From IMG/VR virus record IMGVR_UViG_2526164601_000013: DNA of 16,478 nt; one strand, written 5' to 3'. The notes beneath the pieces were generated by a model. That model saw only the letters and a program-made list of their open reading frames with translations. It ran no database searches and was not told the DNA's origin. Source of the DNA: a virus. Taxonomy: Duplodnaviria > Heunggongvirae > Uroviricota > Caudoviricetes. Position numbers and translations under genes: made by a program. Below are positions 7,695 to 10,712 of the stretch, in pieces (position 1 is the stretch's first letter; every line of letters starts with the position of its first letter).

Positions 7695-7991
7695 ATGGAA
7701 TTTCTGATAGTTTTTGTTGTTGTTTTGGTCATCATTCTTTTTGTTTTGCTAAGCATTAGTAAAAAGCTATCTCAAATGATTGAACATAGCTCTAATCGTG
7801 CAAAAGAAGAAGAGCATATAATTGATATAAAAGAGATTCTCTCTGATATAAAAATCACATTAGATGAAATAAAATACACAACAGATCTAATTGAACAGTA
7901 TAAAATACCAACCCCAAACGAGAGAAAAGCAATAGATCAATATCGTATTGACTTAGAAATCGACGAAATGCTAAGCAAAAGAAAAGACTAA
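7695..7991 (+). CDS. Small membrane-anchored coiled-coil protein (98 aa) downstream of cI; candidate exclusion/abortive-infection moron
   Basis: Track ORF. GGAGGG Shine-Dalgarno upstream. N-terminal TM helix FLIVFVVVLVIILFVLLSI, then a charged helical region. Strongly AT-rich codon usage. Followed by an intrinsic terminator. Confidence 0.6.
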   Translation: MEFLIVFVVVLVIILFVLLSISKKLSQMIEHSSNRAKEEEHIIDIKEILSDIKITLDEIKYTTDLIEQYKIPTPNERKAIDQYRIDLEIDEMLSKRKD

Positions 7992-8424: not shown

Positions 8425-8696
8425 ATGACAGTAGTCATTACATATCTGGCTGACGATAACGCCAGAAATCGCGCAGAGCACGCAGACAGGCTCAACGTGA
8501 ACAGGCAATGCAAGAACAGCGATTGGCACGAAAAATTGCGCTAAAGCTCTCTGGTTGCGTCAGAGCAGATAAAGCAGCATCACTCGGAAGCCTTCGCTGC
8601 AAGAAGGCAGATGAATGCAGTGGAAGTATTTGCCTGCCAAACGTAGCCATTTACGCGGCAGGCTACCGGAAATCAAAACAACTGACGGCGAGGTAA
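8425..8696 (+). pseudogene. N: N-like antiterminator, 5' portion, apparently frameshifted
   Basis: GGAGGT Shine-Dalgarno then ATG at 8425 opens a frame reading MTVVITYLADDNA... that stops after 39 codons. The arginine-rich motif (RQKSRRARRQAQREQA) and the N-like body lie in the next frame with no in-frame start before the track ORF's ATG at 8508. Confidence 0.5.
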
Positions 8697-8698
8697 TT

Positions 8699-9061
8699 AT
8701 GGGTCAGGAAGAAAAATATGAGCTTAAAAAGCTCATTGGAGAAGACGCCATAGAAGAAATTGCAGCATTAACAACAGCTATAAAGAATATTAGGTATGCG
8801 CTAAATACGCTTATCTCCTCATGCGACAAAAATAGCAGGGAATTTTTGATACTTGGCGCAGCTCTAGGAATAGTTGATGCGGCAACGCTTCACCTAATTA
8901 CTCATGACGATATTCTTATTGAGCCGTATGAAACATTACTGCTTGTCAGGCAAAAAATGGCTGATGCCGCAGCAAATGGAGACCTTCAACTTTACATCGA
9001 CTTAAGGAAAGTATTAAGGCGAATGGTCAAAACTGAAGGAGATATCCCCCTGACAAAGTAA
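8699..9061 (+). CDS. Hypothetical protein, 120 aa; gene A of an AT-rich two-gene cassette
   Basis: Track ORF 8615..9061, trimmed to Met MGQEEKYELKK, which has a GAGGT Shine-Dalgarno. Start lies immediately after the stop of the N 5' fragment. AT-rich. No family recognised. Confidence 0.55.
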   Translation: MGQEEKYELKKLIGEDAIEEIAALTTAIKNIRYALNTLISSCDKNSREFLILGAALGIVDAATLHLITHDDILIEPYETLLLVRQKMADAAANGDLQLYIDLRKVLRRMVKTEGDIPLTK

Positions 9062-9091
9062 GGGGGTGAAGAGGCCATTTCAGGAATAAAA

Positions 9092-9586
9092 TTAATAATT
9101 TGTCAGCGGCGGTACATATACAGGCTTAGGGTCTGGCGCTCTATACATCCGGTATTCATTCTTACAGCGAGGACATGAATGCACAAAGAACCCATTAGAT
9201 TTTATAGTAACCGTGCTTGGTTGAAGTATCGATATTTTATGTTCGCCGAAGCAATGTGCACAAAGGTTATGCTGCTGAATAGAAGGATCGGAATGACTCT
9301 TAGGTCGATACACGACAGAACCACCTTCAGTTGTATGAAGTTCATAATTCTCAGCTTGCACAACAAACATCTTGATTTTTCTATTTTCATCTCGAAGCTT
9401 CATTGCGATCTCCTTCTCGGCCTGATAAAGGCCAGAGAGCTCCGCATTAAGCATCTGTAAGTCAGTTATTCTTTGGTGTAGATCACCAATAGCTTTAGCG
9501 ATAACAGCATCGTCTCTGGTTTCTTTTATTGTCTTCAGCAGATCATAAGCCTGTTTCGCGGCAGTTATACCAGATAACACATCCAT
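9092..9586 (-). CDS. Hypothetical protein, 164 aa: N-terminal coiled coil plus C-terminal CxxC...CxxC zinc-ribbon-like domain; gene B of the cassette
   Basis: Track ORF, antisense to the pL operon and convergent with gene A. Cys motifs CAHC and CPRC about 20 residues apart. AT-rich. No family recognised. Confidence 0.55.
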   Translation of the reverse strand: MDVLSGITAAKQAYDLLKTIKETRDDAVIAKAIGDLHQRITDLQMLNAELSGLYQAEKEIAMKLRDENRKIKMFVVQAENYELHTTEGGSVVYRPKSHSDPSIQQHNLCAHCFGEHKISILQPSTVTIKSNGFFVHSCPRCKNEYRMYRAPDPKPVYVPPLTNY

Positions 9587-9667
9587 ATAAATTACTCTCT
9601 TACTGTAGGGGTAAGAGGATTTTACTATTTTTCTCGCTGTAGGGGTACACGAGAACCACCGAGCCTG

Positions 9668-9778
9668 ATGTGGTTAAAAGACAGGCACAATCTTTACTAC
9701 CGCAAGCCACGCAGTGAAATGGGTGTGACTTGTGTTGGTCGCCAGAAAATGAAATTAGACAGCAAACCACTTATTTGA
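9668..9778 (+). pseudogene. N: N-like antiterminator, C-terminal remnant
   Basis: Translation ...NLYYRKPRSEMGVTCVGRQKMKLDSKPLI* closely matches my recollection of the lambda N C-terminus (RTWYSKPGERGITCSGRQKIKGKSIPLI*). The frame is open only from a stop near 9575, so it cannot encode a full N. Confidence 0.5.
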
Positions 9779-9786
9779 GGTGAGAT

Positions 9787-10257
9787 ATGACAAAATCATG
9801 GAGCGTACCTTTTCCTGAATCAGAAACTGAACATGATGGAATGCCTGTTTTCTGGAGATTCCAGGCGACAGTTGAAGAAGATGGAATCAAAATATTCGCA
9901 CTTCAATATATAGCTTTTCATCAGACAGAGCATTATGCATGGTTGGTTCCTGCGCATTGGATTGTTAATTTTAAACCAGCACCAAATCAGTGGTTACAGG
10001 AATGGAAACAAAAGAGAAATAGATATGCAATTAAGAAAGTAGCAAAAAATGCAGAAAGATCTTTTGCATTCCCAACGAAGAAACTTGCTATTGAAAGTTT
10101 ATTGCGCCGGAAGAAATACCATTTAATGAGAATAAAACAAGATTTGGCTGTTGTATCAACTCTTGTTGATGGGATGAAAAATATTGATACATCAACACCA
10201 GATATTGAATATAACTTTGGACACAACCAAGAAACAGAAAATTGGGTATTTTATTAG
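9787..10257 (+). CDS. Hypothetical protein, 156 aa
   Basis: Track ORF. GAGGTGAG Shine-Dalgarno. Starts 9 nt after the N-remnant stop. AT-rich. Confidence 0.55.
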   Translation: MTKSWSVPFPESETEHDGMPVFWRFQATVEEDGIKIFALQYIAFHQTEHYAWLVPAHWIVNFKPAPNQWLQEWKQKRNRYAIKKVAKNAERSFAFPTKKLAIESLLRRKKYHLMRIKQDLAVVSTLVDGMKNIDTSTPDIEYNFGHNQETENWVFY

Positions 10258-10400: not shown

Positions 10401-10712
10401 ATGAAATTACGTGTCTGGCATATCCCGCAAGTACCTATGAAACCGTTCATTGCAGAAGTGGCAAGTGTTGAAGAGGGTGTTCGCCTGATGGGCGCACTGG
10501 CTGATTATGACGCCTTTCAGTATGACAACAACATCAAGCCTGATTACTGCAATGCTAACGGCCTTGAGATGTGGGATGAGAGCCTTACCGATGAAGATTT
10601 ATCAGAGGTGGGGCTTACTGATCGCTGGGTGGATTGGTACAGCGAATGCCAATGTTACGACGACCCACGTAAATATCTCGAAAGCCTGAAAGAAGAAACA
10701 TCAGCCGCCTAA
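10401..10712 (+). CDS. Hypothetical acidic protein, about 103 aa
   Basis: Track ORF 10347..10712 begins at a TTG inside the terminator. Start moved to ATG 10401 (MKLRVWHIPQV), which has a GGAGG Shine-Dalgarno. Confidence 0.5.
   Translation: MKLRVWHIPQVPMKPFIAEVASVEEGVRLMGALADYDAFQYDNNIKPDYCNANGLEMWDESLTDEDLSEVGLTDRWVDWYSECQCYDDPRKYLESLKEETSAA

What the first reader, a model, noticed from the sequence alone, without database searches (positions are those of the whole stretch)
8699..9586. AT-rich convergent two-gene cassette of unknown function between the two N-gene fragments
Two ORFs with no recognisable family lie between the 5' and 3' pieces of the N antiterminator gene. Gene A (8699..9061, +, 120 aa) has its own Shine-Dalgarno and starts right after the stop of the N 5' fragment. 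Gene B (9092..9586, -, 164 aa) is convergent and antisense to the pL operon, with a coiled-coil N-terminus and a CxxC...CxxC zinc-ribbon-like C-terminus. Both look clearly more AT-rich than the flanking phage genes (by eye, not computed), which suggests a horizontally acquired moron. A gene with its own promoter, antisense to an early operon and next to the immunity region, is the classic layout of prophage-encoded exclusion, abortive-infection or toxin-antitoxin modules. Function is unknown; a defence role is a hypothesis.
Basis: partly seen in the sequence, partly recalled or inferred. Interest (0 to 1): 0.78.

Follow-up and report, generated by a model that had tools for sequence, protein, structure and literature searches.

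The report
Rip1-type prophage defence gene beside N
The two unknown genes are hkaQ and hkaP of phage HK620: hkaP is a distant relative of Rip1, a recently solved prophage protein that blocks other phages by binding their small-terminase ring, while hkaQ is an unrelated orphan early gene, so this is a new member of a known kind, not a new system.

Summary
The window is the early region of an Stx1 prophage of E. coli O26:H11.

Gene B (HkaP) is a homolog of Rip1 ("ring interacting pore 1") of phage HK446, solved in complex with the T6 small terminase (PDB 9oox). The evidence:
- profile against PDB sequences: E = 1.9e-18
- profile-profile comparison: 99.6 % probability
- Foldseek: probability 1.0
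- same 164-aa length and same CxxC...CxxC motif
- same position and orientation next to N

Its 104-bp upstream block is about 86 % identical to the mapped sieB promoter and RNA start of P22. In about 100 phage contigs this block precedes either SieB or a Rip1/HkaP protein. HkaP is therefore alternative cargo of the sieB exclusion slot.

Gene A (HkaQ) is an orphan four-helix early protein, translationally coupled to N. It accompanies only 9 of 36 Rip1/HkaP loci and also occurs beside SieB or a GhoS-like gene, so the two are not an obligate pair.

The "N 5' fragment" is a complete 90-aa N allele carrying a window-specific 1-bp frameshift. The 3' fragment is a real, widespread relic. AT-richness is marginal. 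A defence role is supported by homology only.

The parts
8425..8696 (+). Complete N antiterminator gene of the 90-aa H-19B/21/HK620 type. In this window it carries a 1-bp deletion between 8471 and 8472, inside the arginine-rich motif, which splits it into ORFs 8425-8544 and 8508-8696.
   Evidence: Alignment with HK620, HZ41 and phi367. The HK620 annotation gives N as 273 nt. Pfam PF25694 matches to profile position 100/100. The deletion is absent from the best matches shown among complete E. coli genomes. RefSeq annotates the intact 90-aa gene in O26 strains.
8699..9061 (+). hkaQ (gene A): 120-aa orphan early gene of the pL operon, translationally coupled to N (stop + 2 nt, SD GAGG). Predicted four-helix protein.
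   Evidence: 100 % identical to HK620 hkaQ by tblastn. phrog_7374, unknown function. No Pfam, NCBIfam or PADLOC hit. Only two real relatives in an exhaustive HMMER search. AF2 pLDDT 76. No fold match in PDB or BFVD.
9046..9066 (-). Weak candidate terminator hairpin for hkaP (CCCCC-N11-GGGGG, then a U-containing tail), lying inside the 3' end of hkaQ.
   Evidence: Read from the sequence. The fold of 9030-9095(-) contains this stem but is not better than shuffles (z = -0.9). Candidate only.
9092..9586 (-). hkaP (gene B): 164-aa Rip1-family protein with an N-terminal helical hairpin/coiled coil and a C-terminal beta-rich CxxC...CxxC zinc ribbon.
   Evidence: Foldseek hit to 9oox_M/L: E = 1e-6, probability 1.0. 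Profile against the PDB sequence of Rip1: E = 1.9e-18. BLASTP: 28 % identity over 145 aa, E = 4e-14. hhalign: 99.6 %. Invariant cysteines and SILQP motif.
9587..9612 (-). Predicted 26-nt 5' UTR of hkaP, starting at the A of the second ACCCCTACAG copy (9612-9603). Contains the SD AGAGAG.
   Evidence: Mapped by alignment to the annotated 'sieB RNA start site' of P22 NC_002371. Unstructured on its own. Inferred, not measured, for this phage.
9619..9649 (-). sieB-type promoter of hkaP: -35 TGTACC (9649-9644), 19-nt spacer holding the first ACCCCTACAG copy (9646-9637), -10 TAAAAT (9624-9619).
   Evidence: 85.6 % identity to the P22 region annotated 'sieB: promoter' and 86.5 % to the lambda sieB upstream region. 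Missed by the generic sigma-70 scan.
9650..9686 (.). Conserved stems upstream of the promoter: GCCTG 9686-9682 / CAGGC 9667-9663, AACCAC 9675-9670 / GTGGTT 9659-9654 (pseudoknot-compatible), and TTCTCG 9655-9650 pairing with CGAGAA 9636-9631. The block as a whole (9587-9690) travels with the gene.
   Evidence: 24 distinct leaders: 92.7 % of cells paired, 8 pairs changed on both sides, 0 of 500 shuffles reach this, slid controls 27-46 %. The strand cannot be decided (GU 13 vs AC 13). No Rfam family.
9693..9778 (+). Relic of the last ~28 codons of a lambda/HZ41-type N gene (...YYRKPRSEMGVTCVGRQKMKLDSKPLI*). Its stop overlaps the SD/ATG region of the next gene (ATG 9787).
   Evidence: 99 % identical over 97 nt to the HZ41 N 3' end. 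A shortened copy occurs at the same joint in P22. The same flank occurs in many IMG/VR loci.

Best explanation
Gene B (hkaP) is a single-gene prophage defence module of the Rip1 family sitting in the sieB exclusion slot.

Shown here:
- It is homologous in sequence and predicted fold to HK446 Rip1.
- It has the same length and zinc-ribbon motif, and the same position and orientation next to N.
- It carries the same ~104-bp upstream block as sieB of P22 and lambda. That block includes the region annotated in P22 as the sieB promoter and RNA start.
- The block plus gene moves as a unit: in Yersinia it lies between Q and the holin gene.

Inferred:
- In the lysogen, HkaP is made from this promoter (-35 at 9649-9644, -10 at 9624-9619, start near 9612).
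- When another phage infects, HkaP recognises the oligomeric ring of its small terminase, assembles on it and forms a membrane pore that aborts the infection, as reported for Rip1.
- When the resident phage's pL fires, convergent transcription across hkaP and its leader shuts it off. From my memory of Ranade and Poteete 1993, this may involve a sas-type antisense RNA like the one P22 uses against sieB.

Gene A (hkaQ) is a separate early gene. It is co-translated with N from pL and is not needed for B. Its function is unknown. My best guess is an accessory early protein, for host takeover or counter-defence, that travels with the 3' end of this N allele.

The N-like piece downstream is a relic of an older recombination joint.
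For: Homology of HkaP to Rip1:
- Foldseek top hits 9oox_M/L, E = 1e-6 and 2.4e-6, probability 1.0, TM 0.57/0.71; the next hit has E = 0.9.
- The HkaP family profile hits the Rip1 chain at E = 1.9e-18, over residues 28-158 of 164.
- BLASTP E = 4e-14. tblastn with Rip1 finds hkaP in HK620, HK630, HK629 and the Stx1a phage. hhalign 99.6 %, 149 columns.
- CxxC...CxxC and SILQ are conserved in both subfamilies.

Same slot: HK446_037 (Rip1) lies immediately after N and convergent with it, and its GenBank note reads 'similar to HK620p16'.

Rip1 function: the PDB title and molecule name; a prophage protein that blocks incoming phage, with 12 Rip1 capping an 11-mer terminase (PMC12908700); 'Rip1 ... 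sense the small terminase subunit' (bioRxiv 10.64898/2026.04.30.721860).

Promoter: 85.6 % identity to the P22 sieB promoter/RNA start region.

Shared leader: about 104 phage loci carry it. Those with a complete downstream ORF split into SieB (62 loci) and Rip1/HkaP (37), plus two singletons.

Independent mobility: found in the pL slot in Serratia and Pantoea and in the Q-holin slot in Yersinia, always antisense to the surrounding operon.

A is not a partner of B.
Against: - No experiment on HkaP itself was found. The only wet-lab mention uses the intergenic regions of HK620 as insertion sites (PMC4506075).
- Identity to Rip1 is only 28 %.
- HkaP lacks Rip1's first 11 residues. Where Rip1 has a Gly/Ala-rich N-terminal stretch (SGAGGALMSAVGAV), HkaP has a more polar one (SGITAAKQAYDLL). 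HkaP also has a Pro-rich C-terminal tail that Rip1 lacks. Trigger specificity or the effector step could therefore differ.
- PADLOC 2.0 has no model for it.
- The primary Rip1 paper was not available, so the pore mechanism rests on a PDB title, a molecule name and a conference summary.
- The promoter and transcription start are transferred from P22 by alignment, not measured. The generic promoter scan did not find the promoter.
- The sas-type antisense control is recalled from memory. [quoted passage not shown]
Confidence: 0.75

Rival explanations
1. A and B form one functional unit, such as a toxin-antitoxin or abortive-infection pair. In one version, HkaQ made early from pL neutralises HkaP so that the resident phage escapes its own defence, as Esc does for SieB in P22.
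For: - The two genes are convergent and adjacent, and are always together in HK620-type phages and in 55 E. coli genomes.
- HkaQ relatives always lie next to the 3' end of whichever gene fills the exclusion slot: HkaP, SieB or a GhoS-like gene.
- P22 does encode a self-protection factor, esc, annotated in NC_002371.
Against: - 27 of 36 Rip1/HkaP loci, including experimentally studied HK446 Rip1, have no HkaQ.
- The HkaQ family has only about three sequence types, against 34 clusters for HkaP.
- One small protein is unlikely to neutralise three unrelated partners.
- The adjacency follows simply from HkaQ being the first gene after N.
- No toxin or antitoxin family matches.
Confidence: 0.1
2. 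HkaP is not a defence protein. It is instead a coiled-coil/zinc-ribbon regulator or structural adaptor, for example a nucleic-acid-binding factor serving the prophage itself, and the Rip1 family is functionally heterogeneous.
For: - Zinc ribbons often bind nucleic acids; there is a weak Pfam hit to Zn_ribbon_SprT, E = 0.014, below the cut-off.
- Identity to Rip1 is low and the N-terminus differs.
- No phenotype is known for HkaP.
Against: - Homology to Rip1 runs nearly full length (149 of 164 columns).
- The gene occupies the sieB slot under the sieB promoter, alternating only with SieB.
- It is always antisense to lytic operons, as expected for a lysogen-expressed gene.
- HK620 carrying a gfp-kanamycin cassette on either side of hkaP induced and titred like wild type, so these intergenic regions tolerate large insertions.
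Confidence: 0.1
3. The locus is a decaying remnant in a defective prophage. The N frameshift would mark a cryptic phage in which hkaQ and hkaP no longer matter.
For: The window's N carries a 1-bp deletion in its RNA-binding motif, not seen in the best matches among complete E. coli genomes.
Against: - hkaQ and hkaP are intact and about 99-100 % identical to those of the viable phage HK620.
- The frameshift is private to this sequence and may be a sequencing error.
- hkaP expression does not depend on N.
Confidence: 0.05

Closest known systems
Rip1 (ring interacting pore 1) of Escherichia phage HK446, PDB 9oox (complex with T6 small terminase)
   Same: - Homologous over nearly the full length: profile E = 1.9e-18, hhalign 99.6 %.
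- Same 164-aa length.
- Same architecture: helical hairpin plus CxxC...CxxC zinc ribbon with a SILQ motif.
- Same slot: immediately after N, convergent with the pL operon.
- Virtually identical ~104-bp upstream block.
   Different: - Only 28 % identity, forming a distinct subfamily (HkaP type, starting MDxxSGxxAAKQAYDLLK).
- HkaP lacks Rip1's first 11 residues and its Gly/Ala-rich N-terminal stretch, and adds a Pro-rich C-terminal tail.
- In HK446, N abuts rip1 directly, whereas here hkaQ is interposed.
- No phenotype, trigger or structure is known for HkaP.
SieB superinfection exclusion (abortive infection) of P22 and lambda, Pfam PF14163
   Same: - Same genomic slot and orientation.
- Same promoter/leader: 86 % identical, with the P22 promoter and RNA start annotated.
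- Prophage-expressed.
- The same leader precedes either SieB or Rip1/HkaP proteins in about 100 phage contigs.
   Different: - The proteins are unrelated. SieB is a membrane protein with N-terminal transmembrane segments, and HkaP does not match PF14163.
- No internal Esc-like product is evident in hkaP.
Morons of lambdoid prophages (self-contained promoter-gene-terminator units inserted between operon genes)
   Same: - Own promoter.
- Antisense to the host operon.
- Found at two different sites (the N/pL slot and the Q/holin slot) with its leader attached.
   Different: - Compositional contrast is weak (GC 0.41 vs 0.45).
- The terminator is only a weak candidate.
- Gene A is not part of the moron.
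Two-gene toxin-antitoxin or abortive-infection modules
   Same: Small adjacent genes in a prophage immunity-proximal region.
   Different: - The genes are convergent, not co-transcribed.
- They do not co-occur outside HK620-type phages.
- No toxin, antitoxin or PADLOC family matches.

Membership tests
Rip1 family (HK446 Rip1, PDB 9oox) | Significant sequence homology to Rip1 over most of its length | tested here: met
   Profile against the PDB sequence E = 1.9e-18 (q16-148 / t28-158). BLASTP E = 4e-14, 28 % identity. hhalign 99.6 %, E = 7.9e-25, 149 columns. Reciprocal tblastn.
Rip1 family (HK446 Rip1, PDB 9oox) | Same fold as the solved Rip1 chain | tested here: met
   AF2 model (pLDDT 84) against 9oox_M: Foldseek E = 1e-6, probability 1.0, TM 0.57 (query) / 0.71 (target), 123 columns. 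The next hit has E = 0.9.
Rip1 family (HK446 Rip1, PDB 9oox) | C-terminal CxxC...CxxC zinc ribbon with the conserved SILQ motif | tested here: met
   C109, C112, C138, C141 and S119-P123 are invariant in 17 HkaP homologs. The cysteines and S/L of the motif are invariant in 5 Rip1-type sequences. The two sets align. Metal binding itself was not tested.
Rip1 family (HK446 Rip1, PDB 9oox) | Prophage-encoded, in the slot after N, antisense to pL | tested here: met
   Map of HK446 compared with the window, and the shared upstream block.
Rip1 family (HK446 Rip1, PDB 9oox) | Binds the small-terminase ring of an infecting phage and assembles on it | not testable with these tools
   Known for Rip1 only from the PDB title and a conference summary.
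Rip1 family (HK446 Rip1, PDB 9oox) | Forms a membrane pore and protects the lysogen from phage | not testable with these tools
   No phenotype data for HkaP were found. The N-terminal segment differs from Rip1, so this step is the least secure.
SieB (Pfam PF14163) | Match to the SieB profile / N-terminal membrane segments | tested here: not met
   HkaP has no PF14163 hit, whereas leader-associated 177-193-aa proteins score E = 6e-9 to 2.5e-22.
SieB-slot regulatory unit (P22 sieB promoter/leader) | Upstream block homologous to the mapped P22 sieB promoter and RNA start | tested here: met
   85.6 % identity over 104 nt to NC_002371 29644-29743, which carries 'sieB: promoter' and 'sieB RNA start site'. 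Alignment A4.
Two-gene toxin-antitoxin / Abi cassette (A+B) | The two genes co-occur across relatives | tested here: not met
   HkaQ is present in 9 of 36 Rip1/HkaP loci and absent from HK446 and from the Serratia, Pantoea and Yersinia loci. HkaQ relatives lie beside a GhoS-like gene or SieB.
Moron (gene B plus leader) | Own promoter and independent mobility between insertion sites | tested here: met
   The same leader plus gene occurs in the pL slot and in the Q-holin slot. The promoter is assigned by homology to P22. The terminator is only a weak candidate.
N antiterminator (Pfam PF25694 N_peptide) for 8425-8696 | Full-length match including the C-terminus | tested here: met
   HK620 N (90 aa) matches profile positions 13-100 of 100, and the window's second ORF matches 57-100 of 100. 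The reading frame is broken by a 1-bp deletion in this window only.

The most novel reading that the evidence does not exclude
The sieB slot may be a general 'plug-in' defence site. Its ~104-bp leader, with two ACCCCTACAG copies and covarying, pseudoknot-compatible stems just upstream of the promoter, would be a shared switch (RNA or DNA) that silences whatever defence gene is plugged in once the resident phage's pL fires. HkaQ, the first gene after N in three different slot contexts, would be an early anti-exclusion factor acting on that switch or on the slot proteins. That would make hkaQ, the leader and hkaP a defence/self-immunity circuit of a kind described only for P22 sieB, esc and sas.
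Probability: 0.12. Interest if true: 0.65.

Novelty: new member of a known kind. Interest (0 to 1): 0.4.

Why it matters
- It gives a testable function to a gene that RefSeq still calls 'hypothetical protein'. That gene sits in Stx1 prophages of at least 55 complete E. coli genomes in the collection (those listed are O26-type or related STEC) and in the model phage HK620.
- HkaP represents a second, divergent branch of the Rip1 family (28 % identity, different N-terminus). Comparing the two should show which parts recognise the terminase ring and which execute the defence.
- Rip1-type and SieB-type genes alternate behind one conserved promoter/leader. This marks the N-proximal slot of lambdoid phages as a defence hotspot, so the leader can serve as a search handle; two further unknown cargo proteins turned up this way.
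- For genome annotation: the apparent 'split N' is a frameshifted complete gene plus an old relic, not an insertion event.

Tried and rejected
- Pfam, NCBIfam and PADLOC scans of both proteins gave nothing usable. The PADLOC Cas10 hit (E = 0.0035, 14 bits) and the Pfam coiled-coil hits are noise. PHROGs gave only 'unknown function' families.
- HkaQ remains without a lead:
  - The word-indexed search found 5 clusters.
  - In the exhaustive HMMER search, the 776-1334-aa 'hits' are repeat proteins whose scores add up from six weak stretches, so I rejected them as spurious.
  - Fold searches of the AF2 model against PDB and BFVD found nothing below E = 0.5. afdb50 was unavailable.
- The 148-aa version of gene A (8615-9061), which NCBI names 'antitermination N domain protein', is rejected. 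Its 28 extra residues overlap the N 3' end in another frame, and the 64 %-identical relative starts at the Met that corresponds to 8699.
- A generic sigma-70 scan found no promoter for hkaP. The promoter came only from homology to P22.
- Rfam has no family for the leader.
- The GU/AC asymmetry test could not assign the covarying stems to a strand: 13 versus 13. The third hairpin (around the SD) is out of register between sequences, lies partly upstream of the predicted start, and was not scored.
- The primary Rip1 paper and the Ranade and Poteete sieB/sas papers are not in the library.
- A simple 'cassette inserted into N' model is rejected. phi367 has the same 90-aa N without the cassette, HK620 has the cassette without the relic, and P22 has the relic next to sieB.
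Full report
**What is in the window.** The window is the early region of a lambdoid Stx1-converting prophage of the E. coli O26:H11 type. It aligns at 99.8 % with the 30 best matches listed among complete E. coli genomes, many of them O26 strains, and with Stx1a phage Stx1a_10051. The RefSeq map of one such genome runs from the Q/nin genes through replication, cII, cro, cI, N, kil, Erf and anti-RecBCD genes to TorI/xis. The pL operon reads on the + strand.

**The two ORFs.** They are hkaQ (8699-9061, +, 120 aa) and hkaP (9092-9586, -, 164 aa) of coliphage HK620, at 99.4 % nucleotide identity. They also occur in HK630 and HK629 and in 55 complete E. coli genomes, where RefSeq calls them 'hypothetical protein'.

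**The 'two N fragments'.** The upstream piece is not a fragment.
- In HK620, phi367 and the O26 genomes, 8425-8696 is a complete 90-aa N gene of the H-19B/21 type. It ends 2 nt before hkaQ and matches Pfam N_peptide up to the last profile position.
- In this window one C is missing between 8471 and 8472, inside the arginine-rich motif. This splits N into ORFs 8425-8544 and 8508-8696. The best matches shown among 5,426 complete E. coli genomes all carry the extra base, and their best identity (99.1 %) is what that one gap gives. The deletion is therefore a private mutation or a sequencing error.
- The downstream piece (9693-9778...YYRKPRSEMGVTCVGRQKMKLDSKPLI*) is a genuine relic. It is 99 % identical to the 3' end of the 99-aa N of phage HZ41, which shares its first 64 codons with the window's N and then has a lambda-like C-terminus.
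- The layout is not a simple interruption of N. phi367 has the 90-aa N without the cassette. HK620 has the cassette without the relic, its similarity ending at window 9687. P22 carries a shortened copy of the relic at the same joint next to sieB. Many IMG/VR phages have the same flank.
- The relic's stop overlaps the SD/ATG region of the next gene, which may be why it persists.

**Composition.** GC is 0.40 for hkaQ and 0.41 for hkaP, against 0.452 for the window. The cassette is at the 9th percentile of equal-length windows. N is 0.50, but the flanking 98-aa ORF (0.29) and 156-aa ORF (0.35) are more AT-rich. The composition argument is therefore weak.

**Gene B is a Rip1 homolog.**
- HkaP has 34 homolog clusters at 48-79 % identity in Salmonella, Serratia, Yersinia, Pantoea, Hafnia, Edwardsiella, Sodalis and Enterobacter.
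- C109, C112, C138, C141 and the SILQP motif are invariant.
- An AF2 model (pLDDT 84) shows helices at 3-22 and 26-78, then a beta-rich domain at 81-149.
- Foldseek against the PDB gives one outstanding match: chains M and L of 9oox, 'Cryo-EM structure of the Escherichia phage HK446 Rip1 in complex with the Enterobacteria phage T6 small terminase'. E = 1e-6 and 2.4e-6, probability 1.0; the next hit has E = 0.9.
- This is also homology at sequence level. The family profile hits the 164-aa 'ring interacting pore 1 (Rip1)' chain at E = 1.9e-18. BLASTP gives 28 % identity over 145 residues, E = 4e-14. tblastn with Rip1 recovers hkaP. A profile-profile comparison of the HkaP and Rip1 subfamilies gives 99.6 % probability over 149 columns.
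- In HK446, rip1 (HK446_037) lies immediately after N and convergent with it. Its GenBank note already reads 'similar to HK620p16'.
- What Rip1 does is available to me only second-hand. [quoted passage not shown] It is also described as a system that senses the small terminase subunit (bioRxiv 10.64898/2026.04.30.721860). The primary paper is not in the library.

**Gene B sits in the sieB slot under the sieB promoter.**
- The ~104 bp upstream of hkaP (9587-9690, read on the - strand) are nearly identical upstream of HK446 rip1, although the proteins are only 28 % identical. The block is also recognisably conserved upstream of the Serratia, Pantoea and Yersinia homologs.
- The block is 85.6 % identical to the P22 region annotated 'sieB: promoter' and 'sieB RNA start site', and 86.5 % identical to the lambda sieB upstream region.
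- Transferring the P22 annotation through the alignment gives -35 TGTACC at 9649-9644, a 19-nt spacer, -10 TAAAAT at 9624-9619, a start at A9612 and a 26-nt unstructured leader. The generic promoter scan had missed this.
In those with a complete downstream ORF, that gene is SieB (PF14163; 45 distinct proteins, 62 loci) or a Rip1/HkaP-family protein (21 distinct proteins, 37 loci), with two singletons of 80 and 168 aa.
- In Yersinia pseudotuberculosis the block plus gene lies between the Q antiterminator and the holin gene, again antisense to the surrounding operon.
- HkaP with its leader is therefore a mobile, self-contained unit and an alternative to SieB. This is strong contextual support for an exclusion function.

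**Structure in the leader.** Just upstream of the promoter there are two stems that could form a pseudoknot: GCCTG/CAGGC and AACCAC/GTGGTT. A third stem encloses the -35 region. Across 24 distinct leaders, 92.7 % of cells pair and 8 pairs show changes on both sides. No shuffle out of 500 reaches this, and slid controls pair at 27-46 %. G-U against A-C counts (13 vs 13) do not reveal the strand, and Rfam has no matching family. From memory, P22 makes an antisense RNA (sas) that switches sieB translation from SieB to Esc when the phage grows lytically (Ranade and Poteete, Genes Dev 1993). [quoted passage not shown] A similar antisense shut-off of hkaP by pL transcription is plausible but untested.

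**Gene A.**
- HkaQ has no Pfam, NCBIfam or PADLOC match. Its PHROG (phrog_7374) has unknown function.
- An exhaustive HMMER search of 1.84 billion representatives finds only two real relatives (64 %, and about 41-52 % depending on the alignment). The larger 'hits' are repeat proteins with additive weak matches.
- The true start is 8699. The 148-aa ORF that NCBI names 'antitermination N domain protein' merely overlaps the N 3' end in another frame.
- AF2 predicts four helices (pLDDT 76). The most conserved motif (LHLITHDDxLxEP) falls in a low-confidence loop. PDB and BFVD fold searches give nothing.
- In all contexts seen, it is the first gene after N (the same 2-nt spacing in the 64 % relative, 37 nt in the most distant one). 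It is followed by a convergent gene that differs between contexts: HkaP here, a GhoS-like protein (PF11080, E = 8.6e-7) in L004-L006, and SieB in L016 and L133.
- Only 9 of 36 Rip1/HkaP loci have it, all of HK620 type. It is an early pL gene that travels with the 3' end of this N allele and is not an obligate partner of B. Its function remains unknown. A counter-defence or self-immunity role is possible but unsupported.

**Verdict.**
The ORFs, their orientation and their motifs are right. The AT-richness is marginal, and 'between two N fragments' is misread.
Gene B is indeed a prophage-expressed moron and very probably an anti-phage protein, but of a family that is now known (Rip1), in a slot that has been known since the sieB work. 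Gene A is a separate orphan early gene, and there is no evidence for a two-gene or toxin-antitoxin module.
- This is a new, uncharacterised and divergent member of a known kind.
- The least secure step is the effector mechanism. HkaP lacks Rip1's first 11 residues, has a more polar N-terminal stretch where Rip1 is Gly/Ala-rich, and adds a Pro-rich tail.

Noticed in passing
window 8471-8472 (within N, 8425-8696): One C is missing relative to HK620, HZ41, phi367 and the O26 genomes compared (AATCGCCGCAG becomes AATCGCGCAG). This shifts the frame of N inside its arginine-rich RNA-binding motif. The best matches among 5,426 complete E. coli genomes all carry the extra base. It is either a real inactivating mutation of this prophage's N or a sequencing error.
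   Followed up: partly
window 9587-9690 (- strand): A ~104-bp block with two ACCCCTACAG copies 34 bp apart (9646-9637 and 9612-9603) and three stems. It is conserved upstream of both sieB and rip1/hkaP genes in about 100 phage contigs. Two stems just upstream of the promoter covary and could form a pseudoknot. No Rfam family matches, and the strand and function of the structure are undetermined.
   Followed up: partly
IMG/VR loci L067 and L075 (downstream of the same leader): Two further proteins follow the sieB-type leader in place of SieB or Rip1/HkaP: an 80-aa protein (L067) and a 168-aa protein (L075). Neither has a Pfam match. They are possible additional cargo of the exclusion slot.
   Followed up: partly
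loci L004-L006 (Logan metagenome contigs): The 64 %-identical HkaQ relative follows a 90-aa N. It is convergent with a 94-aa GhoS-like protein (PF11080, E = 8.6e-7) in place of HkaP. L004 and L005 also show a 98-aa protein further downstream that the precomputed tables tag PF26859 'Phage_N_antitermin', possibly a second N-type gene in the same operon. My Pfam copy did not reproduce that hit.
   Followed up: partly
window 7695-7991 (+): A very AT-rich (GC 0.29) 98-aa ORF with an N-terminal hydrophobic segment lies between the cI-like repressor and pL. This is the position of rexAB in lambda and hkaS in HK620. It belongs to phrog_18389 (unknown function) and looks like another lysogen-expressed moron candidate.
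   Followed up: no
window 9787-10257 (+) and about 10401-10712 (+): The gene after the N relic is a 156-aa AT-rich ORF (GC 0.35; phrog_1636, unknown function) that also occurs in phi367. The next gene (103 aa in RefSeq) is named 'superinfection exclusion protein' by PGAP, although it lies in the pL sense orientation.
   Followed up: no
N alleles: window 8425-8696 vs L002 2126-2425 (HZ41): Two N alleles share the first 64 codons (98 % identity) and then switch to unrelated C-termini: ...CSGSICLPNVAIYAAGYRKSKQLTAR versus the lambda-like ...YYRKPRSEMGVTCVGRQKMKLGSKPLI. The 90-aa allele's C-terminal 25 residues are 76 % identical in a phage whose N-terminal half is different (L005). The N C-terminus therefore behaves as its own exchangeable module, and in these two phages it travels with hkaQ.
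   Followed up: partly
tblastn with Rip1 against phage genomes: Rip1-family genes at 30-34 % identity occur in Mu-like Pseudomonas phages (D3112 orf25, DMS3, JBD30, MP38), and more distant ones (26-27 %) in Rhodobacter and Pelagibaca phages. The family thus extends well beyond lambdoid coliphages.
   Followed up: no
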